Below are positions 18,814 to 47,408 of a stretch of DNA of 64,000 nt, piece by piece. Both the position numbers and the translations under genes were made by a program. The notes under the pieces are model-generated. The model was not told the DNA's origin. It saw only the letters and a list, made by a program, of their open reading frames with translations, and searched no databases. The stretch lies in the IMG/VR virus record IMGVR_UViG_3300045988_128026, positions 23,157-87,156 of that record; one strand, given 5' to 3'. How positions within the stretch are numbered: position 1 is the stretch's first letter; the number at the start of each line of letters is the position of its first letter. The stretch is from a virus.

Positions 18814-19287
18814 TTACACCCATGCTCGAATACTACTATGATTCATCCTGAGATAAAAGTCATATATATATGTACATAATTTTTTCTCATCGTCAAATAT
18901 CTTGTCAGACATTTGCACCCACCAAGCATGCAATCTTTTCTTTTCTGTATTCAAAATCAGTACAGGAATATGACGTTCATATGCAATTGCAATCTCCATA
19001 GATGTACCAATGCTCTTCGGATCATTCGCATTTACCACAACAAGATCACTATTTCTAACAAAATTTGTATCAAATCTCATTACTTCTTTTTCTGTATCAT
19101 GTAACTCTGTTTGAAAATTATAATAATCAACGGGGTTAATAATGTTGACTTCTTTCATATTAACATTAAGTATTCTACGCATAGCAATAATTTGATTGCA
19201 AATTCTTTCTCTCCAAGTATTCTGCTCTTCAAATGATAAATCCTGCATACCGCCTGCAAGATAAATCTGAAATACATTATTTTGCAT
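18814..19287 (-). CDS. nucleoside 2-deoxyribosyltransferase-like protein
   Basis: IYLAGGM near the N-terminus and GTSMEIAIAY, resembling the NDT/DNPH1 family YLAGP and xxxEIGYA catalytic-Glu segment; 157 aa. Confidence 0.5.
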   Translation of the reverse strand: MQNNVFQIYLAGGMQDLSFEEQNTWRERICNQIIAMRRILNVNMKEVNIINPVDYYNFQTELHDTEKEVMRFDTNFVRNSDLVVVNANDPKSIGTSMEIAIAYERHIPVLILNTEKKRLHAWWVQMSDKIFDDEKKLCTYIYDFYLRMNHSSIRAWV

Positions 19288-20412: not shown

Positions 20413-21246
20413 TTACACCATTCCTCTCACAATTCGTTCATTTGTTGTCATCAAGAAGTTATTGATACGATCCCAGTCTGGTTCGTCTGGCAAATCAGTA
20501 TTCATATAATCATAATCAAATTGATAAAGTAATCCTTCAATAAAAACATCGTATGACTGATTTGGGAAATATTCTGTATGCTCATTGTGTTTGCCAAATC
20601 TATATGTTTTATGCGTACTATTGTACCCTTCTTTGATCTTTACAAGATCTTTTCCTATGTCATCCATAGATCCAAACATTGTTCCGTTATGTAATAATTC
20701 AATACCCTGTAACAATAATCGAACTGCGTGCATCATTGATTTATTAGCGTATCGTTCCGCCTTTTGCTTTTCTTTCTCTGAATCTTTATTTTTATAATAC
20801 TTAAAACTCGTTCGAGTCAGGCAATCACATATATATCCTTTATATGCATGATAAACTCTCTTAGATAAAAACATATCTCTATTTTTGATCAGTTCCATAC
20901 CAATATCAGATATATATAAATAGCGGTCTGGTGCAAAATATAACAGCTCTAAAAACGTAGGATTACCCTTTGCAAGCATATTGATCATCTTAATATGCGA
21001 ATGTAACACAGTATCAACATCTTTATGATCGTCTGTCTTTTCAAGATTATTTGGATTATTATTCAACAAAATCTCTCTTTTATCACTAAGGAAAACACCA
21101 CGTAAATCAATGTCAGAATCCTCTGTATTTGTTCCGTAAGCATAACTTCCACCTAGTGTGAGAAAAGCGATTTTATGAGGATAATCTCGCAAAAAATCAT
21201 ACTCTGTAGACGAGTTTATGTAATCTTTCACTTCTTCAATTGTCAT
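20413..21246 (-). CDS. Pol-beta superfamily nucleotidyltransferase
   Basis: LGGSYAYGTNTEDSDIDLRGVF = GS..(x9-13)..DxD nucleotidyltransferase motif; 277 aa; stop is 2 nt from the HTH start. Confidence 0.55.
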   Translation of the reverse strand: MTIEEVKDYINSSTEYDFLRDYPHKIAFLTLGGSYAYGTNTEDSDIDLRGVFLSDKREILLNNNPNNLEKTDDHKDVDTVLHSHIKMINMLAKGNPTFLELLYFAPDRYLYISDIGMELIKNRDMFLSKRVYHAYKGYICDCLTRTSFKYYKNKDSEKEKQKAERYANKSMMHAVRLLLQGIELLHNGTMFGSMDDIGKDLVKIKEGYNSTHKTYRFGKHNEHTEYFPNQSYDVFIEGLLYQFDYDYMNTDLPDEPDWDRINNFLMTTNERIVRGMV

Positions 21247-22584: not shown

Positions 22585-23538
22585 TCACACTCCTAATACA
22601 TATTTATCACATCTGAACCCAGCTGCATTTGGATGACCGCCACCACCATATTTCACAGCAAGCTCATACACATTTACTTTATCTTGTTCTGCGGATCGTA
22701 GCTGATATTCCCACATACTTCCATTGAATGAAAAACCGATAAACATATCGTATTTAGAAGCATCAATAGATTCGAAGAAATCAGAATTGATTAACGCTCT
22801 GTTGATTGCATAGACTTTATGTCCCTCAAATATGGTTTCAAAACCATATGCTCTAAGATATTGTTCTGCATTTGCTGCTAAATACTCAATAATTGATAAG
22901 CCATCTGCTATCATATCACCAATAATTTTTGCTGCTTCATAAATTCCTTGATCTTTATTTAACGTGTTTAGCAATGGACTTAACGCATCAAAATCATACG
23001 ATTCAAATGCATAGTGAAATGCTTTTACGAATTGTTTTGACGTTTCACCAAAATAAAATGTATCCCACATGGCTGTATATTCTGCCAGTTTTGGATAATC
23101 TGCTTTATATTTATATATATTGAGTAATCTTTTTACATTTTTCTCATCCGTCCTCTCAATTTGCTCCCAATTTTCATCACACATATATTTAAAATATAAC
23201 CATGTCAAATTCGCTCCTGAAATACCCGCTCCAGTAATTCTGATTCCTTTTACATCACACTTGAAATCTTTATACGCTTCAATCGTAGACTGATGATGGT
23301 CGATCCAAAATACATTCTTTGTAATACTGAGCAACTGCCACATCTCTTCTGGCTCAATACTGTAGTCTACAATAAACACAAATTCATCCTGCTCAATGTC
23401 ATGAAACGGGAATTTCATACCGTAATTAATTTTTCGGAAGTCCTCTGGTTCAAATGCTAAACCTCGCTGTTCACAAGCTTTTCTGACGTAGAATCCAGAC
23501 ACGATTCCGTCTTGATCAACATGATAAAAACACTTCAT
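22585..23538 (-). CDS. NrnA-like DHH/DHHA1 phosphoesterase (nanoRNase / pAp or cyclic-dinucleotide phosphodiesterase family)
   Basis: YHVDQDGIVSG (DHH motif I), WIDHHQS (DHH motif III), C-terminal GGGGHPNAAGF (DHHA1 GGGH motif); 317 aa, the size of stand-alone NrnA. Confidence 0.65.
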   Translation of the reverse strand: MKCFYHVDQDGIVSGFYVRKACEQRGLAFEPEDFRKINYGMKFPFHDIEQDEFVFIVDYSIEPEEMWQLLSITKNVFWIDHHQSTIEAYKDFKCDVKGIRITGAGISGANLTWLYFKYMCDENWEQIERTDEKNVKRLLNIYKYKADYPKLAEYTAMWDTFYFGETSKQFVKAFHYAFESYDFDALSPLLNTLNKDQGIYEAAKIIGDMIADGLSIIEYLAANAEQYLRAYGFETIFEGHKVYAINRALINSDFFESIDASKYDMFIGFSFNGSMWEYQLRSAEQDKVNVYELAVKYGGGGHPNAAGFRCDKYVLGV

Positions 23539-23822
23539 TATTTTTCCTCCTTTATCTGCTCACCTTTATTAATTGACTCAACATATATTTCCCAGTCACC
23601 TGCATATACATCTTCCGCAAGAGGTATCCAAACTTCTGCGTTTTCTTTATCAAATAAAAAAATAATTGAATCTGGCTTATATTCACCCATATCATTACAC
23701 TCAAAATAAACATTAGTTAATTCTGACGAATAAATTTTCAAATACTTTTCCTTTCCCCAAATGCCTCTTCTTATAGTAGTTTTGTCTTTTTTTATTGCAG
23801 TCATTGCTTTTATAAAATTCAA
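23538..23822 (-). CDS. hypothetical protein
   Basis: ORF track. Confidence 0.3.
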   Translation of the reverse strand: MNFIKAMTAIKKDKTTIRRGIWGKEKYLKIYSSELTNVYFECNDMGEYKPDSIIFLFDKENAEVWIPLAEDVYAGDWEIYVESINKGEQIKEEK

Positions 23823-23830
23823 TTAATTAC

Positions 23831-24142
23831 TCACCTCTTCCTTTTACTGTTAAAATCCCATCCTTGCTCAACCCAATCATTTGCGAAAATATCCTCTTGT
23901 GTAGGCAACCATCCCAATGTTATAACTCCATTTTGGTCTCTACATAAGAGTGGTTTCATTTTATATTTTTTATCAAATGGAATAATCTCATTTAATTCTT
24001 CTTCGCACATCATAAACACATAATCATAAGTTGTTCGTGTCTTCTTCCACGAACTACGACGATACAATTGTCTTGGATTAATTTCCATATTTTGCATCAT
24101 CATTTCAAACGACATTCCTTGTTTCTTTTTTGCCATTGGCAT
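23831..24142 (-). CDS. hypothetical protein
   Basis: ORF track. Confidence 0.3.
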   Translation of the reverse strand: MPMAKKKQGMSFEMMMQNMEINPRQLYRRSSWKKTRTTYDYVFMMCEEELNEIIPFDKKYKMKPLLCRDQNGVITLGWLPTQEDIFANDWVEQGWDFNSKRKR

Positions 24143-30298: not shown

Positions 30299-30436
30299 TG
30301 GAAACAACAGGAATCGAACCTGTGTCGGCAATTTATATGTGATGAAAATTAAAATGTAAATAAATAAAATACTTATATGGAGGTAGAAAAATGAATGTTT
30401 ATGTATTGCCTGCTCTACCAACTGAGCTATGTTTCC
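30299..30436 (-). tRNA. tRNA-like gene (CAU-anticodon-type arms) with ~65-nt insertion in the anticodon loop; possible intron-containing or disrupted tRNA
   Basis: Minus strand: acceptor GGAAACA/TGTTTCC (7 bp), D-arm GCTC-AGTTGGTA-GAGC, anticodon stem GGCAA/TTGCC enclosing 72 nt beginning TACATAA, T-arm ACAGG-TTCGATT-CCTGT, discriminator A. No encoded CCA; variable loop only 3 nt. Confidence 0.45.
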
Positions 30437-30506: not shown

Positions 30507-31241
30507 TTATTTGCGAGCATTTTTCATCTGATCTAATATGGCTTTAGCTTCTTGCTGTCGCTCTTCTTGCTCCATATGATAATCCAATGTTTCTGCACTA
30601 GATTCATACGCAATAGCAACGCCTTTGGCTTGTTCGCTAAGTTTCTTTGCTCCTTCTCGAACCTCTTCCAAACCTTCCTGAGCAGCATTTGAACTATTGT
30701 ATTGATCTAAATTTTTCTGCAATTCTGCAATCTGCTGATCTGCCTCCATCTGAAGAACCACAGTATCTTTTTCGCTTTTTAGCTTAATGAGCTGATCATA
30801 CGCTTGGTTTTTAATTTCTTCTTGTTTATCTTTTGTGGATTGCAACTCTGGGATTTTCTTTTCGTACACTGATTTCTGTGCCTTTAGCGTGGCTAATTTT
30901 TGAGCATAATACATTGCTTTTTTATCATCATGATTATCAATGTACTGGTTGATCATTGCCTCGGTTTTAGAAATTTCTTCTTTTGTTTCTTTGAGATCAT
31001 CTTCCATTGTTGCCAATCTACCAGCTACCGTTGTGTATGTACCCATTGTTTTCTTATAAAAGTCCTGTTTCTCTTTAATTGCAGTATTATATCTGGCTCT
31101 TGCTCCCTCTGGAGTCATTGCATTTTCTTTGATCTTTTCTGTAACTGTTCCAGATGCCACATTTTTAATCTGCTTTCCGTTTTTAGTAAATTGTAAATAT
31201 GCGATAATTGCTACAATTACACAAATAATAATAATTGCCAT
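30507..31241 (-). CDS. membrane-anchored PspA/IM30-like coiled-coil protein
   Basis: N-terminal TM MAIIIICVIVAIIAYL followed by ~220 aa heptad-rich coiled coil. C-terminal NSSNAAQEGLEEVREGAKKLSEQAKGVAIAYESS resembles the PspA/LiaH C-terminal region. Assignment by pattern only. Confidence 0.4.
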   Translation of the reverse strand: MAIIIICVIVAIIAYLQFTKNGKQIKNVASGTVTEKIKENAMTPEGARARYNTAIKEKQDFYKKTMGTYTTVAGRLATMEDDLKETKEEISKTEAMINQYIDNHDDKKAMYYAQKLATLKAQKSVYEKKIPELQSTKDKQEEIKNQAYDQLIKLKSEKDTVVLQMEADQQIAELQKNLDQYNSSNAAQEGLEEVREGAKKLSEQAKGVAIAYESSAETLDYHMEQEERQQEAKAILDQMKNARK

Positions 31242-31255
31242 AATAATTTCTCCTA

Positions 31256-32716
31256 TTAGAACTCACGGTAATCTGCTGGCTCTGGTGTTCCAAGATTTTC
31301 ATTATCTGTAAACTCTACTTCTTTATCTTCAGAAACAAAATCTTTCAACATCTTTGCAAGATCAACACCTGTAGATCCTTTAACACCATCTGATACCTGA
31401 TTCACAACATTCATAATATCTTTTGTTAATTTTGTTGTATTGCCTTCTCCATACATAGTGATACTTCCTACGTTTCCTAATGGCGCAGCTGCATTTTTAA
31501 CTGCTTCTGGGAACATCTGGCACATCATTTCGACGATAGAAGCTTTACCCATCTGCTTCATAGCTTCGGCTTTCTTTTCGATCGCTTCTGCTTCAGCAAT
31601 ACCTTTTGCTTTAATCGCCTCAGCTTCTGCTACACCTTTCGCACGGATACCTTCAGCTTCCTGTTCCATAGCATATTTTGTAGATTCAGCTTCTTTTTCT
31701 TTAGCATATTTATTAGCTTCTGACTCTTTCTGTCTCTTATATAAATCTGCATCTGCTTTCTGCTGAGAGGCATATCTTTCAGCCTCTGCCTGTTTCTTGA
31801 TCTGTGCATCTAATGTCTGCTCTGTTACCTCAACGTCTTTACGTTTCAGTTCAATTTCTTTTTCCTGACGCATAATATTAGCATCCGCAGTTACAATTTC
31901 AATTTCTTTACGTGATTTTTCTTCCTGAATCTTGTATGCTGCATCTGCCTCAGCCTTCTTTGCTTTTGAAATCTTCTCAAGTTCAGATTTTTTAATTTCC
32001 AGATTGTTATTCTTTTCTGCGATCGCTGTTTCTGACTCAACCCTTGCATCATTCGCTTCTTTTTCAGCCATTGCTTTTGCTTTTTCAATATCTCTTTCGC
32101 TTTCAGCTCTGGAAATTGCAGCCTTCTTCTGAATTTTAACAACATTATCTACACCAAGATTTTCAATAACATCATTATCATCCATAAAATTCTGCACATT
32201 AAAACTGATGATATCTAATCCCATTGCAGCAAGGTCTGGCTTCGCATTTTCTGTAACAAGCTGTGCAAATTTCTGACGATCAGAAACCATTTCTTCGAGG
32301 CTCATCTTTCCAACGATCTCTCGCATATTACCTTCAAGGACTTCTCTTGCGACCTGTCCAATATCGCCTACTGGCTTATTTAAGAAGTTTTCTGCTGCAA
32401 GTTTTAATCTTTCTGGATTACTGCTAACCTTTACATTGACCGCTGCATCTACATTGATATTGATATAATCTGCTGTAGGCACAGAACTTGATGTCTTAAC
32501 ATCAATTGGAATTAACTCAAGATTAAGATGATCTGCTTTTTCAAAGAATGGGATTTTTAACCCTGCCTTACCAATTAATGTCTTAGGTGTCTTTCTAAGT
32601 CCAGAAATAATATAAGCTTTATCTGGACTTGCTTTGACATAACCGCTACCGATAATAGCTCCTACGCCACCTACCGCAATAACCACTGGTACCACTGTTC
32701 CAATTACTTCAATCAT
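31256..32716 (-). CDS. flotillin-like SPFH/band-7 protein (FloT/YqiK-like)
   Basis: N-terminal hydrophobic hairpin VVPVVIAVGGVGAIIGSGYV; SPFH core ...LIPIDVKTSSSVPTADYININVDAAVNVKV...RQKFAQLV...; long EA-rich repeat region (AEAEAIKAKGIAEAEAIEKKAEA); 486 aa. Confidence 0.75.
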   Translation of the reverse strand: MIEVIGTVVPVVIAVGGVGAIIGSGYVKASPDKAYIISGLRKTPKTLIGKAGLKIPFFEKADHLNLELIPIDVKTSSSVPTADYININVDAAVNVKVSSNPERLKLAAENFLNKPVGDIGQVAREVLEGNMREIVGKMSLEEMVSDRQKFAQLVTENAKPDLAAMGLDIISFNVQNFMDDNDVIENLGVDNVVKIQKKAAISRAESERDIEKAKAMAEKEANDARVESETAIAEKNNNLEIKKSELEKISKAKKAEADAAYKIQEEKSRKEIEIVTADANIMRQEKEIELKRKDVEVTEQTLDAQIKKQAEAERYASQQKADADLYKRQKESEANKYAKEKEAESTKYAMEQEAEGIRAKGVAEAEAIKAKGIAEAEAIEKKAEAMKQMGKASIVEMMCQMFPEAVKNAAAPLGNVGSITMYGEGNTTKLTKDIMNVVNQVSDGVKGSTGVDLAKMLKDFVSEDKEVEFTDNENLGTPEPADYREF

Positions 32717-32781: not shown

Positions 32782-33114
32782 CTAAATACATCCGCCACAA
32801 GAATTAGTGCGAAAATCCTCTTCATTGATTGCTTTGAAGATCTGGCGCTGAACATCAATATCTTTTGTAATTTTATCTAACCAATACTTATTAGCCTCAA
32901 TCCACTCATCTTGTTTCAGTCCGTCATAATATGATTCCCATTCTTCAACCCAGTCCTTAAAATACCATCGCTCATATCTTTTATATGTATTCATAGGTTC
33001 TGTGCGTAAGTCTTCTGGAATCTTATCGGTAACATCTTTGCCATCAACATCAAGCTTCCATTCTCCAATACAGAGTGCAAAACCACGACCTGTCCATTTT
33101 GCTTTAACTTCCAT
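32782..33114 (-). CDS. hypothetical protein
   Basis: ORF track; C-terminal CGGCI. Confidence 0.3.
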   Translation of the reverse strand: MEVKAKWTGRGFALCIGEWKLDVDGKDVTDKIPEDLRTEPMNTYKRYERWYFKDWVEEWESYYDGLKQDEWIEANKYWLDKITKDIDVQRQIFKAINEEDFRTNSCGGCI

Positions 33115-33116
33115 AT

Positions 33117-33887
33117 TTAATCATCCAACTCCATTCCTGCCTCGATCCACATGCCAGATATAAATTTAGGCATTGGAGCAAGTTTAAATACATTCTTCTC
33201 ATGCATCTCGTCAATGATCTGTCTCACTGCTTCATCTTTACATACTCCAGTTCTCAGATATTCGTCTAACATATCATATATAAATCCAAGATTATCTTCA
33301 TCTGTCTTACCGCATAATCCATCAGTAGGTGTTTTTTCGATTAACTCTGTTGGAAGTCCCAGAACTCTACCAATTGCTTTAACTTCTGTCACAGTCAGAT
33401 CACTTAATGGACTAAAATCTCCGGCTGAATCTCCATATCTTGTTGCATATCCGACCCAATCTTCAGATAAATTACATGTATTTGCTACTCTTCCATTCAT
33501 ACTCTGTGCAAAAGCATACAATGTAGCCATTCGGATACGAGCAGGTAAATTTGTGGCACTCTGTTTACTCCATTTACCGCCTAATTCATCTCTGATTTCA
33601 TGTTTAATATCTCTGCAAGCATTAAAAATATTAACTGTGTAATGTTCAATTCCTAGATGATCACATAGCATCTGAGAATACTCAATATCACTCTGCACAC
33701 CCTGTGGCATCATAATTCCAATAACTCGATCTTTACCTAGTGCTTCGACACATAAGGCAGCGACAACTGATGAATCTTTACCGCCTGAAATTCCTACAAC
33801 GGCATTACACCATCTTCCATTAACTTTAAACCAATCTCTAATCCACTGTACTAATCTGTCTTTGGTTTCTGCTGCATTAAAACTCAT
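33117..33887 (-). CDS. nadE: NH3-dependent NAD+ synthetase
   Basis: PP-loop GISGGKDSSVVAAL; size 256 aa; ATP-pyrophosphatase-fold conservation throughout. Confidence 0.85.
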   Translation of the reverse strand: MSFNAAETKDRLVQWIRDWFKVNGRWCNAVVGISGGKDSSVVAALCVEALGKDRVIGIMMPQGVQSDIEYSQMLCDHLGIEHYTVNIFNACRDIKHEIRDELGGKWSKQSATNLPARIRMATLYAFAQSMNGRVANTCNLSEDWVGYATRYGDSAGDFSPLSDLTVTEVKAIGRVLGLPTELIEKTPTDGLCGKTDEDNLGFIYDMLDEYLRTGVCKDEAVRQIIDEMHEKNVFKLAPMPKFISGMWIEAGMELDD

Positions 33888-34287
33888 GTTTTATATCTCC
33901 TCTCTTAATTCTTGAAATAAGTATTTTTAAGTGTTTATAGACTAAAGGCAAGCCACCTCTGTCATCAATATATACATTTGCATATGTCTTGCGACCGCCT
34001 ACGGGAACTGAACTGTCACAGTTGATACCTTTATATTTAATCTTATAATTCTGTAAATAATTTGCGATCATATCATATTTGTCTGATCCATTACCTGTCA
34101 GAATAATCACTTCAGAATAATCTTCCCATTCTCGAAGCAAATTCATCACGTCGTCATAAGTTCTACCAACTTTGTGAAAATCATATAATGTATCATCAAA
34201 ATCTACACAGAAAATTAATTTTCCATATTTTTTAAATTCATCTTCAAGTCGCTGATAGCAATGGTTTTCATCTAAGTAAAAATCCAT
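33877..34287 (-). CDS. small HAD-superfamily phosphatase
   Basis: Motif I VDFDDTL (DxDxT), motif II ILTGN, motif IV YIDDRGG; 136 aa. Confidence 0.5.
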   Translation of the reverse strand: MDFYLDENHCYQRLEDEFKKYGKLIFCVDFDDTLYDFHKVGRTYDDVMNLLREWEDYSEVIILTGNGSDKYDMIANYLQNYKIKYKGINCDSSVPVGGRKTYANVYIDDRGGLPLVYKHLKILISRIKRGDIKHEF

Positions 34288-35756
34288 TAAAATTCTCCTT
34301 CGTTTAAAACTCTTCTAATTTCCTGTAATGACTGTTCTTTTACCAATTTGCCATCTCTAAATACTGTCTCAAGCAGATTATTCATTGGAAGATTTTCTGA
34401 AGTATATCCATCTTTAAATGTCAATTTACCGTCTGATCCTGTATAAACATGACATAAACCTCTCTGAGATTTCTTAAATCCGCCATCTTTGGGATTCTTA
34501 AAAATTGGATATGGTCTGCCATTAATCTCACAATATGTTGCTTTGATGCAGCTACTAAATGTATCTCTTGTAAATGGTTTCAAAACTCCATCTTCTTCAA
34601 TGCACTGGAATGAGAATGATCCGACACCAAGTGCAACATTGCTTGCTGCGAATCCATTTTTCTCTAAGATGTCATAAATCTGCTCACATCTCTGCACTGT
34701 AATTGAATCTCCGTAAATTGCTTTTATATGAGGATCTAAAACTTTATATCCTTTACTGTTTGTCGTTCCCCCAAACTCTTCCCATAACTTGAATACCGTT
34801 CTGGTTACTACATCTACACAATCTCCTGAGTCTCCTCTGACAAGAAAACATCCATTGTGATTCATGATCTCATTCTTGAGTTTTGGGAGAATATTCTCTA
34901 CAACATTCCAATAATCATATGAATCTAACACTGCTGAGAAACTTGTGTTTGGATAAATCTCTGTCAGTAATCTCTTAATTAATGTTTCTTCATCTCCATC
35001 AATTGCATAATTACTACACATAACTGAATGTTCAGTCGATGGACTACCAAAAGCAACTGGCTCTTTCGTACAATCACAGTTATAATTTCTCTCTAAATAC
35101 GGAATTGTTGGAACTGTTGCTGTATTCAAGAATGATAAACACCATCCTGCCCCTGCTTTAACCGCAGACTGTAAACATTCTTCGCCACGAAAATCGAAAG
35201 CCCCTAATGCTTTAGATTTTGGAATATCGTCATCACAAGTCATTTCATAGAACTTGTTAACAATCTGTCTGTATGTATGTCCAACAGTTGCAGCGATCAT
35301 CGGATGCCACATTTCTGCGGAAATTAAGCTTTCTAATGCCTGTGGTAACCATGCAAAATCTTTATGTGTATTCTCAATACTAAACATCGGCACATGCATT
35401 GGTGCTAAAGTTCCTTCAGGAAGAGCCTTAATCTCAATTGGAAGATAGCCAAGATCATATAAATCTTCGATTTTCTGTAATCCATATGTACCTTCTCCAA
35501 GAGCTGCATCCATTACTGTCTTATAAGTACCAATTGCTTTGTTTCTATATTCAAAGAAAAAATACTCATTAAAATAATCGACCAAATACTCTTTAATGAA
35601 TCCTTGTAATCCAAACATGGCTACTTCATTCCATCGTTTTACTCTGCTCATACGTGGAGTAAAATAAGAAACAGATTTTGTAATACCTTTTGGTAACATT
35701 TCAGCATGAACTGCTTTGTAAAAATCAATTAATAACATTGGGTTTGTCTGTTTCAT
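34287..35756 (-). CDS. nicotinamide phosphoribosyltransferase family protein (NadV/Nampt-like; could equally be a Namat-type nicotinamide ADP-ribose transferase)
   Basis: LLIDFYKAVHAEMLP..SYFTPR parallels the Nampt ATDSYKVTHYKQYP..SYFECR; 489 aa; adjacent to a Prs-like gene. Confidence 0.75.
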   Translation of the reverse strand: MKQTNPMLLIDFYKAVHAEMLPKGITKSVSYFTPRMSRVKRWNEVAMFGLQGFIKEYLVDYFNEYFFFEYRNKAIGTYKTVMDAALGEGTYGLQKIEDLYDLGYLPIEIKALPEGTLAPMHVPMFSIENTHKDFAWLPQALESLISAEMWHPMIAATVGHTYRQIVNKFYEMTCDDDIPKSKALGAFDFRGEECLQSAVKAGAGWCLSFLNTATVPTIPYLERNYNCDCTKEPVAFGSPSTEHSVMCSNYAIDGDEETLIKRLLTEIYPNTSFSAVLDSYDYWNVVENILPKLKNEIMNHNGCFLVRGDSGDCVDVVTRTVFKLWEEFGGTTNSKGYKVLDPHIKAIYGDSITVQRCEQIYDILEKNGFAASNVALGVGSFSFQCIEEDGVLKPFTRDTFSSCIKATYCEINGRPYPIFKNPKDGGFKKSQRGLCHVYTGSDGKLTFKDGYTSENLPMNNLLETVFRDGKLVKEQSLQEIRRVLNEGEF

Positions 35757-36589
35757 AAATCTAACACCTCAACTTTCTCATGCTCTTTGGTAAAAATACT
35801 ACGTGTCGTATACACTTTTTTAAACAAACTATCTTCCTTTAATAATTCGCCATCAAGAATTGTATTTTCACAGTGACTAACATATAAATACATATCTTTA
35901 CAACCGTATTTGTTTAATTCTTTTGATCCATAATAGAATGTGCCACCCTTACTACAAATATCATCAATCATAAGGATTGCCGTATTTTCGTCTAATTTAT
36001 CTGTATCTCCATGAATCTCAATACCAAGAATTTCTCCTGTCTTCCAATCACGATTTTTAATTCCATAAACAATCGGATAATCATCTGATACAAATTCAGA
36101 ATATCTTTTTAGTGATCCGCTATCTGGAAAATAAATTACAAGATTTCTTGATGGTTCTGCTTTAAGGACTTTGCTACAAGTTTGTGTAATATATGATGCT
36201 CCACGGATTACTTCTACATGATCAATCAATGCAGTAGATACATCAGAATGTGGATCAGTTACAATAACTCTTACAAATCCAAGACTATTAATAATTTCTG
36301 CAAAATATTTTAATGTAAAGCATTCGCTTGGCTCTTTTACTCTGTCAAATCTTGCATTTGGTATATACGGCATCACTAATGCTTGTTGTAACCACGGAAA
36401 ATGTTCTTTAATATTTTTAGAAATACACAACAAGGAAAACAACTCTTTATCTGACTCATATAACCATGTGATATACGCTGTCTTGTTTTCTATGATTTCT
36501 TGAGATATCACGCCTAACGAAAAATCAATTTTTTGCGTTCCATCTGGAAAAGATTCTGGAACAACTGGGACTCCATTAATACTAATCAT
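35753..36589 (-). CDS. ribose-phosphate pyrophosphokinase-like protein (Prs; alternatively Adps-type ADP-ribose pyrophosphokinase)
   Basis: PRPP-binding loop AILMIDDICSKGGTF; 278 aa (shorter than canonical Prs); 4-nt overlap with the Nampt-like gene. Confidence 0.7.
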   Translation of the reverse strand: MISINGVPVVPESFPDGTQKIDFSLGVISQEIIENKTAYITWLYESDKELFSLLCISKNIKEHFPWLQQALVMPYIPNARFDRVKEPSECFTLKYFAEIINSLGFVRVIVTDPHSDVSTALIDHVEVIRGASYITQTCSKVLKAEPSRNLVIYFPDSGSLKRYSEFVSDDYPIVYGIKNRDWKTGEILGIEIHGDTDKLDENTAILMIDDICSKGGTFYYGSKELNKYGCKDMYLYVSHCENTILDGELLKEDSLFKKVYTTRSIFTKEHEKVEVLDL

Positions 36590-36603: not shown

Positions 36604-37194
36604 TTATTCATTAATTATTTCAATTTGACACATTTTCATTGCTTCAAGTGCATTCTTGTGACTCTCTGGTGTTACACCTGCGCAACACGATGCATCTACG
36701 ATAATCTTTGCTTTTGGAAGTGCCGCTTTTAATAACATTGCATTGGAGATTACACAAATATCTGTACATAAACCAATTAATGTAATTTCCACATTTTCTG
36801 GATGAAGTCGATTACCAATCCCAAATTCATCTTCACAGTCAAGTGCAAGGTCTAATGATCCAAATGTGCTTTTACGGTACATACCATCTGGTAATATAGA
36901 TTTGTCTTTGTTATCATCAATGGAAATATTGTTAGATAAAACATCTCCTACCTCTTGATTTAACCGCCATCCATCTTCTCCGCAGATGCAATGCTTTACT
37001 GGAAGATTCTTTCCTTCCTGTGTGGAAAGATAATCTTCCTCATGTGTGTCCATTGTTGCTACGATTATTCCATCAAAATTAATAATTTTCTCTACAACTT
37101 TTGGAACGATCTCCTGTGCTTCTTTAGTCCCAAGGCTTCCGTCGATGAAATCATTCTGCATATCGACGACAACCAATAACTTGTCAATATTCAT
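36604..37194 (-). CDS. pncA: nicotinamidase / isochorismatase-family hydrolase (PncA-like)
   Basis: LLVVVDMQNDFIDGSLG; Cys-containing GLCTDICVISNA catalytic segment; 196 aa. Confidence 0.75.
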   Translation of the reverse strand: MNIDKLLVVVDMQNDFIDGSLGTKEAQEIVPKVVEKIINFDGIIVATMDTHEEDYLSTQEGKNLPVKHCICGEDGWRLNQEVGDVLSNNISIDDNKDKSILPDGMYRKSTFGSLDLALDCEDEFGIGNRLHPENVEITLIGLCTDICVISNAMLLKAALPKAKIIVDASCCAGVTPESHKNALEAMKMCQIEIINE

Positions 37195-43741: not shown

Positions 43742-44770
43742 TTATTCTGTCATAATTTGATGTACACGATAATTCTTATAGTCCTCATCTTTATATAAAT
43801 AACCAATAGTTTTACCAATTACAGTTTGACGATCACTAAATTGTTTCTTTTTTAATCTATATGATATATAATAATTATAATAAAATTCAATTGCAATTTC
43901 ACTAAATTGACGTGCGATTATAGATCGTGCGATTCCTTCTTTTGATTTAATATAATATAAATCTGCAATTGCCTTGATATCCATTTTAGATTTTAAATAT
44001 TGTATAAAACCAGAATTAATAACATCAATGGTTGTCAATTTCTCATAAGATAAAGTGTTACCAGTTAATTCTAATTGAGACTGCACATTATTATATATCC
44101 TCTTTTGCTCTGCTTGATATTCTTCTATATTATTACATTTTTTTCGTGGTATTAATACAAAATCATCATATATATTCGTATCTCCCATTTTCAATTTATA
44201 TTCATTCAATGTCTCGATAAAATCTTTGGAGACTGGTTTCCCAAAAATTGTTAAATCATTTTGATTAATATCTGAGAATTTTAGATTTCTTAACTCCTTT
44301 CCATTTATCCCATTATATAAACTCACAATATGAAATCTAGTATTCAATTTGGTATCGGCTGATGCATTGCACGACATCAGATTCGAAATAAACGCATTTA
44401 TTTTATCTGGTGTAACATAATTAACATTAACTCTATTTGAAAAATATATATCAACTGCTAATTGCAAGTTTATAAATTTATCATTAACAAATGGATTATA
44501 TTTAATGTAATTTTGTTCATATGCATAAGTATATAGTTTAACGAGCTGGTCATATCTTTTTTTAATAGAATTCATACTTTTGGTTTTTTTACCTCTAGTA
44601 TCTGATAATATAGCCTCTTGGATTGTACCTGGTGCATATGTTAACCCAGATTCATTGTCGTCCGCAATATCAGAATCTAACAACCAATTCCATGTTGGGC
44701 GACGTGATTCTGATACGTGAGAATCTATATAATTTTGTATCAATTCTTTATTATTCATAATATTCTCCAT
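43742..44770 (-). CDS. hypothetical protein
   Basis: 342 aa; one segment (ELRNLKFSDINQNDL) resembles recombinase box I, but no HxxR/Tyr catalytic motifs are seen. Confidence 0.3.
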   Translation of the reverse strand: MENIMNNKELIQNYIDSHVSESRRPTWNWLLDSDIADDNESGLTYAPGTIQEAILSDTRGKKTKSMNSIKKRYDQLVKLYTYAYEQNYIKYNPFVNDKFINLQLAVDIYFSNRVNVNYVTPDKINAFISNLMSCNASADTKLNTRFHIVSLYNGINGKELRNLKFSDINQNDLTIFGKPVSKDFIETLNEYKLKMGDTNIYDDFVLIPRKKCNNIEEYQAEQKRIYNNVQSQLELTGNTLSYEKLTTIDVINSGFIQYLKSKMDIKAIADLYYIKSKEGIARSIIARQFSEIAIEFYYNYYISYRLKKKQFSDRQTVIGKTIGYLYKDEDYKNYRVHQIMTE

Positions 44771-44772
44771 TT

Positions 44773-45222
44773 CTAGGATGCCATTGCATTCATGTACGAT
44801 AACATGCCGTTTTGTATTAAAATGCCATGTCCTATTTTTAACATTAAAGATAGATCAGATATTCTTCCCCAATATTCTAAAAGATTATTCTTTGGAATTG
44901 TTCTTCCTTGCTCTAAATACACCTGTGATACCATTTTTAATCCATTACTGGTATTTGGATAAATGGTTACATGTGTCGGTATCCAGTTCCTTAATTTTTT
45001 TGTAATTGGATACACGTTAATCTCTGTGCTCGTATTATTACAAATATTATTAGAATATACGATGACTGGTCTTTTCCCATGCAAGATATGACTACCTTCA
45101 ATTTTCGGCAAATCTGCAAAATATATTCCCCAAACTTGAGGATTTTGATATTTGCCATATACATATTCTTTTCTTTTTCTGTTATCGTTTCCTTTTCTTT
45201 CTTTGTTAGTATATCCGTTCAT
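44773..45222 (-). CDS. MazF/PemK-like endoribonuclease-fold protein with N-terminal extension
   Basis: GIYFADLPKIEGSHILHGKRPVIVYSNNICNNTSTEINVYPITKK matches the MazF/PemK core (G-x-[ILV]-x-x-[ILV]-D-[FL]-x...GKRP-x-[ILV]-V-[ILV]-S-N...V-x-P-[ILV]-T). Start set at M21 (RBS GAGGG, downstream of promoter copy 2). Confidence 0.5.
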   Translation of the reverse strand: MNGYTNKERKGNDNRKRKEYVYGKYQNPQVWGIYFADLPKIEGSHILHGKRPVIVYSNNICNNTSTEINVYPITKKLRNWIPTHVTIYPNTSNGLKMVSQVYLEQGRTIPKNNLLEYWGRISDLSLMLKIGHGILIQNGMLSYMNAMAS

Positions 45223-45279
45223 TTTTACGTCCCTCAACTTTCCCCAGTTGCATTTTTTGTTTTCATGAATTAAATATAC

Positions 45280-45328
45280 CATACTTTTTGCACCCTGTCA
45301 ATAGGTGCAAGAAAGAAAGTTAATTTTT
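45280..45328 (-). promoter_or_regulatory. 49-bp promoter element copy 2 (-35 TTGACA, 17-nt spacer, -10 TATATT on minus strand)
   Basis: Identical to 2051-2099; sits immediately upstream of the MazF-like gene. Confidence 0.5.
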
Positions 45329-45382
45329 GTTGTGAACAAAGAATCTCTACATTTCTTATTATAATGCTACCATAGAACAAAA

Positions 45383-45703
45383 TCAAGATATTTTTCGAAC
45401 AGATGTTCTCTTTTTGTTCGAACACTTTACTTTGTGCTTACTTGGAAGGGGGAAATACTGTCTAACTTTATGAGGCTTATCCAGTTTCCATTTCTTTTCT
45501 TCAAAATCATAGTCACAAAAATCAAGCACTTCGTCCACACATCCATCATTATATTTGTAATCCACAATAACAGGATATGTTTTATACCTCATGTAACGTG
45601 ATGCATTATCTGGTTTTAATGGTGGAATCTCTGCTGAAATCCACATAAGATTCTGGTTTGCTTTCTTTTCTTCCTTATTTTGTCTAATCGTATTTATCTT
45701 CAT
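45383..45703 (-). CDS. hypothetical protein
   Basis: ORF track. Confidence 0.3.
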   Translation of the reverse strand: MKINTIRQNKEEKKANQNLMWISAEIPPLKPDNASRYMRYKTYPVIVDYKYNDGCVDEVLDFCDYDFEEKKWKLDKPHKVRQYFPLPSKHKVKCSNKKRTSVRKIS

Positions 45704-45714
45704 ACAAAATTCTC

Positions 45715-46461
45715 CTATAAAATCCTAATAATTTGTTCGTAAATTGCAATCGCATTATCTTCTGGAAAGTTCTGGTTCACATGCATATGCCCAAAGAACC
45801 ATTTTTGATAAATCACTTTGTCTTTTATTTGCTGTAAATAATCCGTTAACTTGTCAGATTTGTACACTCCTGATCCTTGATCCATTTGTCTTAAAACAGA
45901 TGTGTATGGACTATGTGTAATAACGTAATCTACTTGGAAGTCATTTTTCTCTAAATTCATCACACCTTCTGCCATCTCTTTATCAGATGGCAATTCTTCT
46001 TTCCACCAGCTCACATGATTAATCCTAAACATTTTGTCATAATCTCTGTACCATTCATTAATTCTTGGATCGTCTGGCTCTAAAATTCCATCTTGCACAT
46101 CATGGGAACTGGCACCGCCAAATGTAAAGAATTTCTTTCCTTGAATTTCAAACACCTGTCCACGCATAAGATGAAATACAGAGTCTTTGATCTTGTGAAT
46201 CTTTCCGCCGCACCATTTCTCTACAGGATATTGATATAAGCGGTCGTAATTTTCATGATTCCCACATACAAACAATGTAGTAAATGGCTTGTTATCTAAC
46301 CATTCCAGATTATATCGTTCTTCTTTTGTGTCATGCCACAGTCCAAAATCTCCGCAGATAATCACATAATCATCTTTGGTTAACTCAACTCCCTCTGGGA
46401 AAGAACGACTGTTTAATCGAGTCATCCAATCCCCATGTGTATCTCCTGTTACAAATATCAT
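45715..46461 (-). CDS. calcineurin-like metallophosphoesterase
   Basis: MIFVTGDTHGDW, ICGDFGLW, VCGNHENY metallophosphatase motifs. Confidence 0.75.
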   Translation of the reverse strand: MIFVTGDTHGDWMTRLNSRSFPEGVELTKDDYVIICGDFGLWHDTKEERYNLEWLDNKPFTTLFVCGNHENYDRLYQYPVEKWCGGKIHKIKDSVFHLMRGQVFEIQGKKFFTFGGASSHDVQDGILEPDDPRINEWYRDYDKMFRINHVSWWKEELPSDKEMAEGVMNLEKNDFQVDYVITHSPYTSVLRQMDQGSGVYKSDKLTDYLQQIKDKVIYQKWFFGHMHVNQNFPEDNAIAIYEQIIRIL

Positions 46462-47408
46462 ACAATTACTCCTTCCAATAACTCTTCTAATGCCTGCATA
46501 TTATCTTCATGTACTCTATCATCTTGATCTGCATCATCTTTGCCAGTCTTATAAGCAAACTTGATAATCTCCATAACTCTATCATAACTCACATTAACAA
46601 CATTTTCCTTCAATCCGTTAAAAGCCCCACTGATAATTTCCTTGTATGTCTGCGCAATATCATCAAACAATACATGAGTTTCTTCCTCTGTGATTGTTGC
46701 ATACAGAAATGTCATTGCAGGGCTACTATGATTCAATAATCTCATAAGTGTATACAATACGTTCTGATCATCTTTATGATCGACAAGTGTCCAATACACA
46801 AAGTTCTTTCGTAATGTATGCGTACCAATATTGTCCTCAATTCCAACTGCTTTAGCACCTTTTTTAACAAAATCCAAAGCATTTGCTTCAGTCATGTGTC
46901 CTGATCCAGACTTACATGTTCCAAAAACATAATCATCCATTGGCACTTCGCCATCAATCTTGACATCATATTTAGTTCCTGCAACAGCTTCAAAGAAAAT
47001 ATCCACTGCTTCAGTTACCAAATCGTTAAAGTATACAGTTCTGAATTTCTTTGTTTTCTTTTCCTGCTTACGAGTCTTATCGTCTAATAAATCGCCCCAT
47101 TTGAGTCTGACGATATCAGAGATACGATATGCTGTATTGTTTCCAACTGCAACCAAAAGATTGTTTCTGGCAGCTACATATCGTTTGTACTCTGTGTACG
47201 ATTTATCAATCTGGTCTCTAAAATATGCATTAAAGGCTGCAAATTTTTCTTTGTTCTTAATTGGATACACTAAAGATGATACGCCTTTTTGTTTATTAGA
47301 TCGAGTCCATTTAGGATTTCCGTCCTTACGTCTTTTGATCTTTGCTTCAGGTTCTTCTGCGTTATTATTGTTTGCTGTTTTAATAACTTCAAACTGTGTT
47401 GCTGCCAT
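46458..47408 (-). CDS. tyrosine site-specific recombinase / integrase
   Basis: Box I YRISDIVRLKWGDLL, box II GTHTLRKNFVYWTL, LLNHSSPAMTFLYATI with the terminal catalytic Tyr. Confidence 0.7.
   Translation of the reverse strand: MAATQFEVIKTANNNNAEEPEAKIKRRKDGNPKWTRSNKQKGVSSLVYPIKNKEKFAAFNAYFRDQIDKSYTEYKRYVAARNNLLVAVGNNTAYRISDIVRLKWGDLLDDKTRKQEKKTKKFRTVYFNDLVTEAVDIFFEAVAGTKYDVKIDGEVPMDDYVFGTCKSGSGHMTEANALDFVKKGAKAVGIEDNIGTHTLRKNFVYWTLVDHKDDQNVLYTLMRLLNHSSPAMTFLYATITEEETHVLFDDIAQTYKEIISGAFNGLKENVVNVSYDRVMEIIKFAYKTGKDDADQDDRVHEDNMQALEELLEGVIV

What the first reader, a model, noticed from the sequence alone, without database searches (positions are those of the whole stretch)
34287..36589. Adjacent Prs-like and Nampt-like pair: canonical PRPP-to-NMN route or NARP1-type Adps/Namat NAD+ reconstitution?
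Two readings are possible. In the first, a PRPP synthetase feeds a nicotinamide phosphoribosyltransferase to make NMN; that route needs an NMN adenylyltransferase, and I find none in this window. In the second, the two-enzyme NARP1-type pathway rebuilds NAD+ directly from ADP-ribose plus nicotinamide, the products of defence NADases. There a Prs homolog (Adps) pyrophosphorylates ADPR and a Nampt homolog (Namat) joins it to nicotinamide, so no NMNAT is required. The short Prs-like protein (278 aa), its 4-nt overlap with the Nampt-like gene and the absence of an NMNAT fit the second reading. The sequence alone cannot decide between them.
Basis: partly seen in the sequence, partly recalled or inferred. 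Interest (0 to 1): 0.7.

Follow-up and report, generated by a model that had tools for sequence, protein, structure and literature searches.

The report
Nicotinate-type phage NAD+ rebuilding operon
The gene pair is a phage NARP1-type system for rebuilding NAD+ after bacterial immune enzymes destroy it, but it belongs to a large subfamily not described in the papers I could search, one that appears rewired, with a flanking nicotinamidase and NAD synthetase, to run through nicotinic acid instead of nicotinamide.

Summary
A 278-aa Prs-like ORF (35753-36589, -) and a 489-aa Nampt-like ORF (34287-35756, -) overlap by ATGA, and no NMNAT was detected in the 64 kb.

Both proteins group with the validated NARP1 enzymes Adps and Namat (SPbetaL1, FADO), not with Prs or Nampt.

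The pair is the core of a tight operon: nicotinamidase, Adps, Namat-like, small HAD protein, NH3-dependent NadE.

In the Namat-like protein, the Asp that binds the nicotinamide amide (SPbetaL1 D215, human Nampt D219) is Ala213. Pocket residue A242 is Ser and G213 is Asn. All ribose, phosphate and most adenine contacts are kept.

- 125 of 130 non-Asp loci with adequate flanks carry PncA + NadE + Adps.
- 0 of 24 Asp-type loci carry PncA or NadE.
- The non-Asp proteins form one subfamily, about one third of the 150 nearest cluster representatives.
- A natural Namat::NadE fusion exists.

Best explanation (about 0.55): nicotinamide is converted to nicotinate, ADPR to ADPR-PP, the two are joined into NaAD, and NadE makes NAD+. 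The papers I could search do not describe this. It is not tested biochemically.

The parts
36604..37194 (-). Nicotinamidase-like protein (PncA, isochorismatase fold), 196 aa; first gene of the module
   Evidence: Pfam Isochorismatase E 6e-17. The best PDB matches are nicotinamidases: P. horikoshii 1ilw/1im5 at E 1e-11, plus 29iv, 2h0r and 3pl1. Catalytic Asp and Cys and the Asp-His-His metal site are conserved here and in 12 homologous loci, and a conserved K-x-T probably corresponds to catalytic Lys94. The protein is far below the E. coli PncA equivalog cutoff (30 vs 174 bits). It ends 14 nt upstream of Adps.
35753..36589 (-). Adps-like protein (ADP-ribose pyrophosphokinase, Prs superfamily), 278 aa
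   Evidence: 36% identity and 140 bits to the validated SPbetaL1 Adps and 35% to FADO Adps, against 24% and 48 bits to E. coli Prs. PDB Prs matches reach only E 1e-12 or weaker. Every NCBIfam Prs model scores below its cutoff. The active-site Lys (SPbetaL1 K162) is conserved, and the motifs DPHS and K-x-R-D-x-x-TG-x-I are shared with all 22 Adps sequences but not with Prs.
34287..35756 (-). Namat-like transferase of the non-Asp subfamily, 489 aa; predicted nicotinate:ADPR-PP transferase
   Evidence: The best PDB hit is SPbetaL1 Namat 9W5X/9W5W (389 bits); human Nampt scores 175 bits. The protein lies inside the Adps-linked Namat clade, whose split from NARP2-type Nampt has 100% bootstrap.

Kept residues (window numbering): D11, Y13, R38, F187, R190, H243, R307, D309, G349, D350, G379, S380, F381, T396, R397, D398.

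Changed residues (SPbetaL1 number to window residue): D215 to A213, G213 to N211, A242 to S240, H187 to G185, Y396 to C385. There is also a 9-aa insertion in the SCH element, GSFSFQC-IEEDGVLKP-FTRD.
33877..34287 (-). Small capless HAD-like (DxDxT) putative phosphatase, 136 aa; optional accessory gene
   Evidence: Invariant DFDDT, a Thr/Ser motif, and K...DD motifs. A profile search hits PDB 2obb, a hypothetical protein, at E 0.002. The AF2 model has pLDDT 82. Foldseek gives only weak matches (E>=0.02) to capless HAD phosphatases: SCP3, lipin/Pah and T4 PNK phosphatase.

The gene is present in 18 of the 125 complete non-Asp modules. It is fused to NadE in L062/L063 and also occurs in the Asp-type NARP1 operons L106 and L113.
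33117..33887 (-). NH3-dependent NAD+ synthetase (NadE, single domain, no glutaminase), 256 aa
   Evidence: Pfam NAD_synthase E 2e-56. TIGR00552 nadE scores 188 bits against a cutoff of 64. The best PDB hits are NH3-dependent NAD synthetases 2e18, 3fiu and 3p52. The gene overlaps the HAD gene by 11 nt.
32782..33114 (-). 110-aa protein of unknown function that follows NadE after 2 nt; possible module member
   Evidence: PHROG 20678, function unknown. The near-identical protein in L097 carries a precomputed PF27390 (PM0253) hit. A PM0253-family gene also lies near the Namat::NadE fusion in L197. It is conserved only in the close relatives of the window.

Best explanation
This is a NARP1-derived, four-enzyme NAD+ reconstitution pathway that runs through the deamidated intermediates. 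It is carried by a large temperate phage or mobile element of gut Clostridia; the same module occurs in an Anaerostipes assembly and in many Lachnospiraceae MAGs.

Proposed steps:
1. The nicotinamidase converts nicotinamide, released by defence NADases, into nicotinate.
2. Adps pyrophosphorylates ADP-ribose to ADPR-PP using ATP.
3. The Namat-like enzyme joins nicotinate to ADPR-PP, giving nicotinate adenine dinucleotide (NaAD). Its adenine clamp and ribose/phosphate site are intact, but its nicotinamide-amide-binding Asp is replaced by Ala and its pocket carries new Ser and Asn side chains.
4. NadE amidates NaAD to NAD+ with ATP and ammonia.

No NMNAT is needed. The small HAD protein is an optional accessory phosphatase, most likely acting on the ADPR side.

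What is shown: homology and clade membership, residue changes, gene linkage, covariation and fusions. What is inferred: every catalytic activity, and above all the nicotinate specificity of step 3.
For: Kind:
- Both core proteins are closest to the experimentally validated SPbetaL1 and FADO NARP1 enzymes.
- The Namat/Nampt split has 100% bootstrap, and the window protein lies on the Namat side.
- Adps K162 and the catalytic His, Arg and Asp of Namat are conserved.

Pyridine switch:
- SPbetaL1 D215 H-bonds nicotinamide, and D215A cuts activity about 8-fold (PMC12774641).
- Human D219 defines Nampt substrate specificity. D219S is listed as switching substrate affinity and D219A as losing activity (PMC7096376, PMC4919578).
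- The window has Ala at this position. Related clades have Ala or Ser, and one representative has Val.
- In a comparison of 63 non-Asp and 107 Asp-type Namats, the most discriminating columns are 215, 187, 242 (Ala to Ser in 62/63) and 213. Columns 215 and 242 are listed nicotinamide-pocket residues. Every ribose, phosphate and AMP contact is conserved in both groups except Y396.

Linkage:
- Among loci with at least 2.5 kb of flank, 125 of 130 non-Asp loci have PncA + NadE + Adps, and 0 of 24 Asp-type loci have PncA or NadE.
- The link holds in divergent non-Asp lineages: L076 clade, 48% identity; Phass-1, 33-36%; P0143, P0146 and P0212.
- It holds despite rearranged gene order in L002, L064 and L108.
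- Three Asp/Glu-type control representatives lack both genes.

Fusions:
- P0168 is a non-Asp Namat fused to NadE in one 865-aa protein, seen in two assemblies, with an isochorismatase gene directly upstream and a Prs-like gene nearby.

Substrate context:
- An NrtR-type winged-helix regulator sits upstream of the module in a bacterial context. From my own knowledge, NrtR repressors respond to ADP-ribose.
- Two Tad2-like anti-Thoeris genes lie in the same window.
- PncA catalytic and metal residues are conserved.
- Adps is present in all 130 non-Asp loci.
Against: - No biochemistry was done. Nicotinate use is inferred from residue changes and gene context only.
- In human Nampt the D219A change is recorded as loss of activity, not a switch, so Ala213 alone does not prove nicotinate use.
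- The non-Asp proteins form a single group with only 48% NJ bootstrap. The covariation may therefore trace to one ancestral event and cannot be counted as 125 independent observations.
- The second adenine-stacking aromatic (Y396) is Cys, and the SCH motif carries a 9-aa insertion. ADPR-PP preference is therefore not guaranteed.
- The second-best PDB hit of NadE is 3fiu (Francisella). From memory, that enzyme prefers NaMN, so amidation at the mononucleotide level is not excluded.
- A phage-encoded nicotinamidase would remove nicotinamide, which inhibits sirtuin-type NADases. This is a cost that the model does not explain.
- Five non-Asp loci lack PncA and/or NadE within the fetched flanks. One distant representative (P0153) showed neither gene, on a contig cut just upstream.
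Confidence: 0.55

Rival explanations
1. Classic NARP1 plus an independent booster. The Namat-like enzyme still joins nicotinamide to ADPR-PP to give NAD+ directly, with the Asp loss tolerated or compensated. PncA and NadE separately push the host's own Preiss-Handler route (PncA, host PncB, host NadD, NadE) as a second supply line.
For: Adps and Namat clade membership, with all ribose, phosphate and most adenine contacts kept. SPbetaL1 D215A retains some activity, only about an 8-fold loss. PncA and NadE are the first and last steps of a standard bacterial salvage route (established pathway knowledge).
Against: This rival does not explain why loss of Asp, A242S and G213N/K co-occur with PncA/NadE in 125 of 130 loci and never in Asp-type loci. 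It does not explain why Namat and NadE are fused in P0168. A nicotinamidase in the same operon would compete with Namat for its own substrate.
Confidence: 0.17
2. Mononucleotide route. The Prs-like protein makes PRPP, or host PRPP is used. The Nampt-like enzyme acts as a nicotinate phosphoribosyltransferase and makes NaMN. NaMN is then adenylylated by host NadD and amidated by NadE, or is amidated first by a Francisella-type NadE.
For: Namat enzymes can still use PRPP in vitro. NCBIfam places the protein above the cutoff of the PRK09198 'nicotinate phosphoribosyltransferase' model, 431 against 405 bits. The second-best PDB hit of NadE is 3fiu.
Against: The Prs-like protein groups with Adps, which does not make PRPP. 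Adps is present in all 130 non-Asp loci, whereas no adenylyltransferase was found in the window or in the Pfam-annotated neighbourhoods of L097 and L197-L201. The adenine-clamp residues R38, F381, T396 and D398 are conserved, which would be pointless for PRPP. The PRK09198 name is, in my reading, the historical label of the NadV/Nampt family and carries no information on specificity.
Confidence: 0.12
3. Canonical housekeeping-type Prs + Nampt making NMN, completed by an NMNAT encoded elsewhere.
For: Only the domain annotations (Pfam NAPRTase and NAMPT_N, PHROG 'ribose-phosphate pyrophosphokinase'), plus the fact that the remainder of the phage genome was not examined.
Against: Both proteins fall with validated Adps and Namat rather than with Prs and Nampt. 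The nicotinamide-binding Asp needed for Nampt activity is absent. No NMNAT is in the window. Osterman et al. found no phage carrying both NARP1 and NARP2.
Confidence: 0.04

Closest known systems
NARP1 (Adps + Namat; Osterman et al. 2024; phages SPbetaL1, Bas63, FADO)
   Same: A two-gene core in the same order with overlapping ORFs. Adps-clade and Namat-clade membership. Conserved Adps Lys (K162). Conserved Namat catalytic His, Arg and Asp and the SCL Arg. No NMNAT. Phage-borne, and found alongside other anti-NAD-defence genes (Tad2-like).
   Different: The nicotinamide-binding Asp215 is Ala. A242 is Ser and G213 is Asn. The SCH signature is interrupted by 9 aa and lacks its position-7 aromatic. 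The core is flanked by a nicotinamidase upstream and NadE downstream. The predicted product is NaAD rather than NAD+, and the pathway needs an extra ATP-dependent amidation step.
NARP1-AP (NARP1 plus the Macro-domain ADPR-1''-phosphate phosphatase Adpp; Osterman et al. 2026 preprint)
   Same: A NARP1 operon extended by accessory genes, here including a putative phosphatase.
   Different: The accessory protein is a capless HAD-fold protein, not a Macro domain. No Macro domain was found in the window. Its substrate is unknown. The PncA and NadE extension is not part of NARP1-AP.
Bacterial Preiss-Handler salvage (PncA, PncB, NadD, NadE)
   Same: It starts with nicotinamide deamidation, passes through NaAD and ends with NadE amidation.
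   Different: PncB and NadD are replaced by Adps plus a Namat-like enzyme. The adenylyl and ribosyl parts would therefore come ready-made from ADP-ribose, not from PRPP and ATP.
NARP2 (Nampt + NMNAT, phage KVP40) and NARP3 (PnuC + NadR, Bas30)
   Same: Phage-encoded NAD+ restoration against NAD+-depleting defences.
   Different: There is no NMNAT, NadR or PnuC here. The Nampt-like protein falls outside the NARP2 Nampt clade with 100% bootstrap.

Membership tests
Adps (NARP1 ADPR pyrophosphokinase) | Falls in the phage Adps clade rather than with cellular Prs | tested here: met
   140 bits and 36% identity to SPbetaL1 Adps, against 48 bits and 24% to E. coli Prs. All NCBIfam Prs models score below their cutoffs. 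The closest phage hits include the validated SPbetaL1 and FADO proteins. Only one true Prs was used for comparison, and no formal tree with many Prs sequences was built.
Adps (NARP1 ADPR pyrophosphokinase) | Active-site Lys (SPbetaL1 K162) present | tested here: met
   Conserved as 'YGIKNRD'.
Adps (NARP1 ADPR pyrophosphokinase) | Namat homologue in the immediate vicinity (97% of the clade, per Osterman et al.) | tested here: met
   4-nt overlap with the Namat-like gene.
Adps (NARP1 ADPR pyrophosphokinase) | Pyrophosphorylates ADPR and not ribose-5-phosphate | not testable with these tools
   Needs an enzyme assay.
Namat (nicotinamide ADP-ribose transferase) | Falls in the Adps-linked Namat clade, separate from Nampt | tested here: met
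   100% bootstrap for the split. 389 bits to 9W5X against 175 bits to human Nampt.
Namat (nicotinamide ADP-ribose transferase) | Nampt-like catalytic core: F189, R192, D215, H245, R306, D308 | tested here: not met
   F187, R190, H243, R307 and D309 are present, but D215 is Ala213. D215 is Asp in 106 of 107 Asp-type Namats, with one Glu.
Namat (nicotinamide ADP-ribose transferase) | [quoted passage not shown] | tested here: not met
   The sequence is GSFSFQC + IEEDGVLKP + FTRD. The position-3 Phe and the TRD are kept, position 7 is Cys, and there is a 9-aa insertion. Some members of the same non-Asp subfamily (Phass-1, P0143, P0146) keep the canonical motif.
Namat (nicotinamide ADP-ribose transferase) | SCL loop with Arg, Lys or Tyr at the stacking position (SPbetaL1 R40) | tested here: met
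   R38 in 'PRMSRV'.
Namat (nicotinamide ADP-ribose transferase) | Makes NAD+ from ADPR-PP and nicotinamide | not testable with these tools
   Needs an enzyme assay. The sequence evidence argues for a different pyridine substrate.
Nicotinamidase (PncA) | Asp-Lys-Cys catalytic triad plus Asp-His-His metal site | tested here: met
   D, D-x-H, H and C align with P. horikoshii D10, D52, H54, H71 and C133. A conserved K-x-T stands where K94 lies. The alignment around the Lys is gapped, so that one residue is less certain.
Nicotinamidase (PncA) | Passes the curated equivalog model | tested here: not met
   NF008623 scores 30 bits against a cutoff of 174. The protein is a divergent member.
NH3-dependent NAD+ synthetase (NadE) | Passes the curated model, with an SGGxDS PP-loop | tested here: met
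   TIGR00552 scores 188 bits against a cutoff of 64. 'ISGGKDS' is present in the translation. There is no glutaminase domain (256 aa).
NARP2 (Nampt + NMNAT) | NMNAT encoded by the same phage | tested here: not met
   None in the 64-kb window. The rest of the genome was not examined.

The most novel reading that the evidence does not exclude
A previously undescribed enzymatic reaction and pathway. A Namat-derived 'nicotinate ADP-ribose transferase' makes NaAD from ADPR-PP and nicotinate. It works inside a conserved PncA-Adps-transferase-NadE module, a 'deamidated NARP1'.

The module is common in phages and prophages of gut and rumen Clostridia. It is also present in at least one bacterial chromosome next to an NrtR-type regulator, a family I know as ADP-ribose-responsive. 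It may have arisen because host nicotinamidase activity starves classic NARP1 of nicotinamide.
Probability: 0.5. Interest if true: 0.8.

Novelty: new variant of a known kind. Interest (0 to 1): 0.72.

Why it matters
NAD+ depletion is one of the most widespread bacterial anti-phage strategies, and NARP1 is the main known metabolic counter-measure.

If this subfamily really runs through nicotinate and NaAD, several things follow:
- It adds a new enzyme activity and a fourth route to the phage NAD+-reconstitution repertoire.
- A sizeable share of genes now labelled 'NARP1' or 'nicotinamide phosphoribosyltransferase' in gut phage genomes would be mis-assigned in substrate. About one third of the 150 nearest cluster representatives are of this type, although that sample is biased towards the query.
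- It gives a natural experiment on how one Asp controls amide versus acid specificity in the Nampt fold.
- It suggests a further layer of the arms race around the fate of nicotinamide.

The module is compact at four genes, so the prediction can be tested directly in vitro and in E. coli or B. subtilis defence assays.

Tried and rejected
- Megablast of the operon against GenBank phages found nothing. Protein-level searches were needed.
- I suspected the 136-aa HAD protein was the known NARP1-AP phosphatase. That one is a Macro domain, and no Macro domain is in the window.
- PDB sequence search, profile search and AF2 + Foldseek identify the HAD protein only as a capless HAD-like fold, with no substrate clue.
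- NARP3 was considered and rejected: it is PnuC + NadR.
- Biopython bootstrapping timed out twice. I replaced it with a numpy NJ implementation.
- The search for related loci with P0136, P0149 and P0168 found nothing in IMG/VR.
- Promoter and terminator scans were at or below shuffle expectation and say nothing about operon boundaries.
- An Rfam scan found no riboswitch near the operon.
- A possible PncA::Namat fusion (P0194) is a 308-aa fragment, and I did not trust it.
Full report
**1. What is there**

Searches confirm the two minus-strand ORFs at the stated coordinates and their ATGA overlap. They are not an isolated pair. They sit in a run of tightly packed, same-strand genes:

| Coordinates | Size | Gene | Spacing to the next gene |
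|---|---|---|---|
| 36604-37194 | 196 aa | isochorismatase-fold protein | 14-nt gap |
| 35753-36589 | 278 aa | Prs-like | 4-nt overlap |
| 34287-35756 | 489 aa | Nampt-like | 1-nt overlap |
| 33877-34287 | 136 aa | small protein with a DFDDT motif | 11-nt overlap |
| 33117-33887 | 256 aa | NAD synthase | 2-nt gap |
| 32782-33114 | 110 aa | unknown | |

- Pfam, PHROGs and NCBIfam give Isochorismatase, PHROG 619 'ribose-phosphate pyrophosphokinase', NAPRTase + NAMPT_N, and NAD_synthase (TIGR00552, 188 bits against a cutoff of 64).
- Almost every gene in the window is on the minus strand.
- The window is a replication and accessory region of a large phage-like element. It has PolIII alpha, RecD2-like, RecJ-like, primase and DnaB-like genes, two sigma factors, an integrase, Bro-N/ANT genes and a MazF toxin.
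- No adenylyltransferase, Nudix or Macro domain was found in the window.

**2. Which family the pair belongs to**

- The Nampt-like protein scores 389 bits against the crystal-structure sequence of SPbetaL1 Namat (9W5X/9W5W, identified through PMC12774641). It scores 175 bits against human Nampt.
- The Prs-like protein is 36% identical (140 bits) to SPbetaL1 Adps and 35% to FADO Adps. It is 24% identical (48 bits) to E. coli Prs and fails every curated Prs model.
- It keeps the Adps active-site Lys that Osterman et al. mutated (K162). It shares DPHS and K-x-R-D-x-x-TG-x-I motifs with 22 Adps sequences but not with Prs.
- In a neighbour-joining tree, the Adps-linked proteins separate from NARP2-type Nampts (a KVP40-like phage, T4-like phages and a cyanophage) with 100% bootstrap. 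The window protein is on the Namat side.
- On homology and context this is a NARP1-type pair, not a Prs/Nampt pair.

**3. The twist**

- Lan et al. (PMC12774641) list the nicotinamide pocket of Namat as F189, R192, D215, A242, R306, D13' and Y15'. D215 H-bonds the amide, and D215A costs about 8-fold in activity.
[quoted passage not shown] D219S is tabulated as switching substrate affinity and D219A as losing activity (PMC4919578).
- In the window protein this residue is Ala213.
- I compared 63 non-Asp and 107 Asp-type Namat sequences. They came from the loci and from 150 cluster representatives of a 1.8-billion-protein library.
- The columns that best separate the two groups are:
  - 215: Asp versus Ala, Ser or Val
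  - 187: His versus Gly, Ser, Cys or Ala
  - 242: Ala versus Ser in 62 of 63
  - 213: Gly versus mostly Asn or Lys
- Columns 215 and 242 are listed pocket residues. Position 213 lies two residues before 215, so on a beta-strand its side chain would point the same way (inference).
- Every residue that contacts the ribose, the phosphates or the AMP moiety is conserved in both groups: R306, D308, G360, D361, G390, S391, F/Y392, T398, R399, D400 and R/K40. The exception is Y396, which is Cys or Ala in most non-Asp members and is usually accompanied by an insertion.
- The change is therefore concentrated where the pyridine substituent is read. It removes a negative charge and adds hydroxyl, amide or amine donors. 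This is what one would expect for a switch from a carboxamide to a carboxylate.

**4. Gene linkage**

I collected 79 IMG/VR loci, 80 loci from GTDB species genomes, 18 more IMG/VR loci, 17 GenBank phage loci and several metagenome contigs.

| Namat type (loci with at least 2.5 kb of flank on both sides) | Loci | With PncA + NadE + Adps | With PncA or NadE |
|---|---|---|---|
| non-Asp | 130 | 125 | 129 |
| Asp-type (20 NARP1, 4 Nampt) | 24 | 0 | 0 |

- The Asp-type set includes the validated phages SPbetaL1 and FADO, a Felixounavirus close to Bas63, ICP1, Staphylococcus G1 and Listeria A511.
- The link holds in divergent non-Asp lineages:
  - the 'KTS' clade at 48% identity
  - Phass-1 at 33-36% identity, which keeps a canonical SCH motif
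  - the representatives P0143, P0146 and P0212
- It holds where gene order is rearranged (L002, L064, L108).
- Three Asp/Glu-type control representatives have neither gene.
- With the diagnostic columns masked, all 63 non-Asp sequences form one pure group in the NJ tree, at only 48% bootstrap. The safest reading is a single ancient subfamily whose gene partnership has been maintained down to about 35% identity. It should not be read as many independent events.

**5. Fusions and regulation**

- P0168 is an 865-aa protein seen in two assemblies. A non-Asp Namat is fused to NadE, an isochorismatase gene lies directly upstream and a Prs-like gene is nearby.
- Fusion of two enzymes is classic evidence for consecutive steps. 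It is hard to reconcile with NadE serving only the host pathway.
- The HAD protein is fused to NadE in L062/L063.
- In L198 the module follows a regulator with an NrtR winged-helix domain (30.7 bits against a cutoff of 27) and is next to a chemoreceptor gene, which is a bacterial context. From my own knowledge, NrtR repressors are released by ADP-ribose, which fits ADPR as the pathway's input.
- The window also carries two tandem Tad2-like genes. The element is therefore equipped against Thoeris, whose type I effector depletes NAD+.

**6. Mechanism proposed**

1. PncA converts nicotinamide to nicotinate. Its catalytic and metal residues are conserved.
2. Adps converts ADPR + ATP to ADPR-PP.
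3. The Namat-like enzyme joins nicotinate to ADPR-PP, giving NaAD + PPi.
4. NadE converts NaAD + ATP + NH3 to NAD+.

Homology, residue patterns, linkage and fusions are shown. All four activities are inferred. Step 3 would be a new reaction.

Why a phage would take the longer route is open. One possibility is that hosts with high nicotinamidase activity starve classic NARP1 of nicotinamide. That is speculation.

**7. Rivals**

- A classic NARP1 plus a separate Preiss-Handler booster does not explain the pocket changes, their covariation or the fusion.
- A PRPP/NaMN route does not explain the universal presence of Adps, the retained adenine clamp or the lack of any adenylyltransferase. The similarity of NadE to Francisella 3fiu keeps this route alive at low probability.
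- The canonical Prs/Nampt/NMNAT reading is disfavoured on every test.

**8. Is it known?**

- Full-text searches combining Namat, NARP or phage with nicotinamidase, NadE, nicotinate or NaAD found nothing describing this arrangement.
- The two NARP1 papers from the Sorek laboratory do not mention nicotinamidase or NadE.
- The Aravind survey of viral NAD+ systems contains no mention of nicotinamidase, PncA, NadE or NAD synthase.
- The Phass-1 paper only lists 'nicotinamidase' in a table.
- NARP3 is PnuC + NadR.
- Subscription-only papers are not covered by these searches.
- I therefore rate it a new variant of a known kind.

**9. Host and spread**

- The same module, including the HAD gene, occurs in an assembly of Anaerostipes sp. 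Marseille-Q3525.
- The genome scan is dominated by Lachnospiraceae, Acetatifactor, Ruminococcus, Roseburia and Mogibacterium MAGs from human, rodent and ruminant guts.
- Related viral contigs are about 110-170 kb.

Noticed in passing
window 23538-23822 (-) and 23831-24142 (-): Two tandem genes each carry a Tad2-like (Thoeris anti-defence 2) domain above Pfam's cutoff (42.7 and 34.2 bits against 25). A 317-aa protein with weak DHH/DHHA1 phosphoesterase hits lies directly downstream (22585-23538). This may be a second anti-Thoeris or anti-signal island.
   Followed up: partly
window 30299-30436 (-): Rfam tRNA match (46.4 bits). The acceptor, D and T arms are intact, but 81 nt stand where the 15-nt anticodon arm belongs. 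ARAGORN finds no tRNA in the window. It could be an intron-containing, interrupted or decayed tRNA gene.
   Followed up: partly
L197 7115-9712 (protein P0168); L062 and L063 8467-9597: Natural fusions: a non-Asp Namat fused to NadE (865 aa, seen in two assemblies), and the small HAD protein fused to NadE (376 aa).
   Followed up: partly
L198 128-958: An NrtR-type winged-helix regulator sits directly upstream of an Adps-PncA-Namat(non-Asp)-NadE module, next to a methyl-accepting chemotaxis gene. The module therefore also exists in a bacterial chromosomal context, possibly under ADP-ribose control.
   Followed up: partly
L106 5536-5943; L113 5107-5556: Homologues of the small HAD protein also sit inside or beside Asp-type (classic) NARP1 operons. 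The HAD protein is therefore a NARP1 accessory in its own right, possibly a non-Macro counterpart of the Adpp phosphatase.
   Followed up: no
window 32782-33114 (-); L197 2732-3325: A small PM0253-family (PF27390) protein follows NadE in the window. A larger family member lies near the Namat::NadE fusion in an unrelated contig. The function is unknown.
   Followed up: no
window 43742-47408 (-): A PemK/MazF-type toxin (44773-45282), a tyrosine integrase (46458-47408), a second integrase-like ORF (43742-44770) and a calcineurin-like phosphoesterase (45715-46461). Three Bro-N/ANT antirepressor-like genes lie elsewhere in the window. Together these suggest a temperate or integrative lifestyle.
   Followed up: no
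window 30507-32716 (-) compared with L097 13035-17891: Downstream of the NAD module the window has an SPFH/flotillin protein (31256-32716). The near-identical element in Anaerostipes carries a P-type ATPase, vWA-TerF-like, TerD and PspA-like genes at that position. This looks like a variable cargo slot.
   Followed up: no
representatives P0122-P0270: Many Namat homologues are 550-1100 aa and match the query in two to four separate stretches. This suggests frequent insertions (inteins or homing endonucleases) within the gene. Pectobacterium phage phiTE has an HNH endonuclease annotated inside its copy.
   Followed up: no
window 18814-19287 (-) and 20413-21246 (-): A nucleoside 2-deoxyribosyltransferase-like ORF just below the Pfam cutoff (27.6 against 28.8 bits) and an RlaP RNA-repair nucleotidyltransferase. 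RlaP plus RNA ligases also accompany the module in L197.
   Followed up: no
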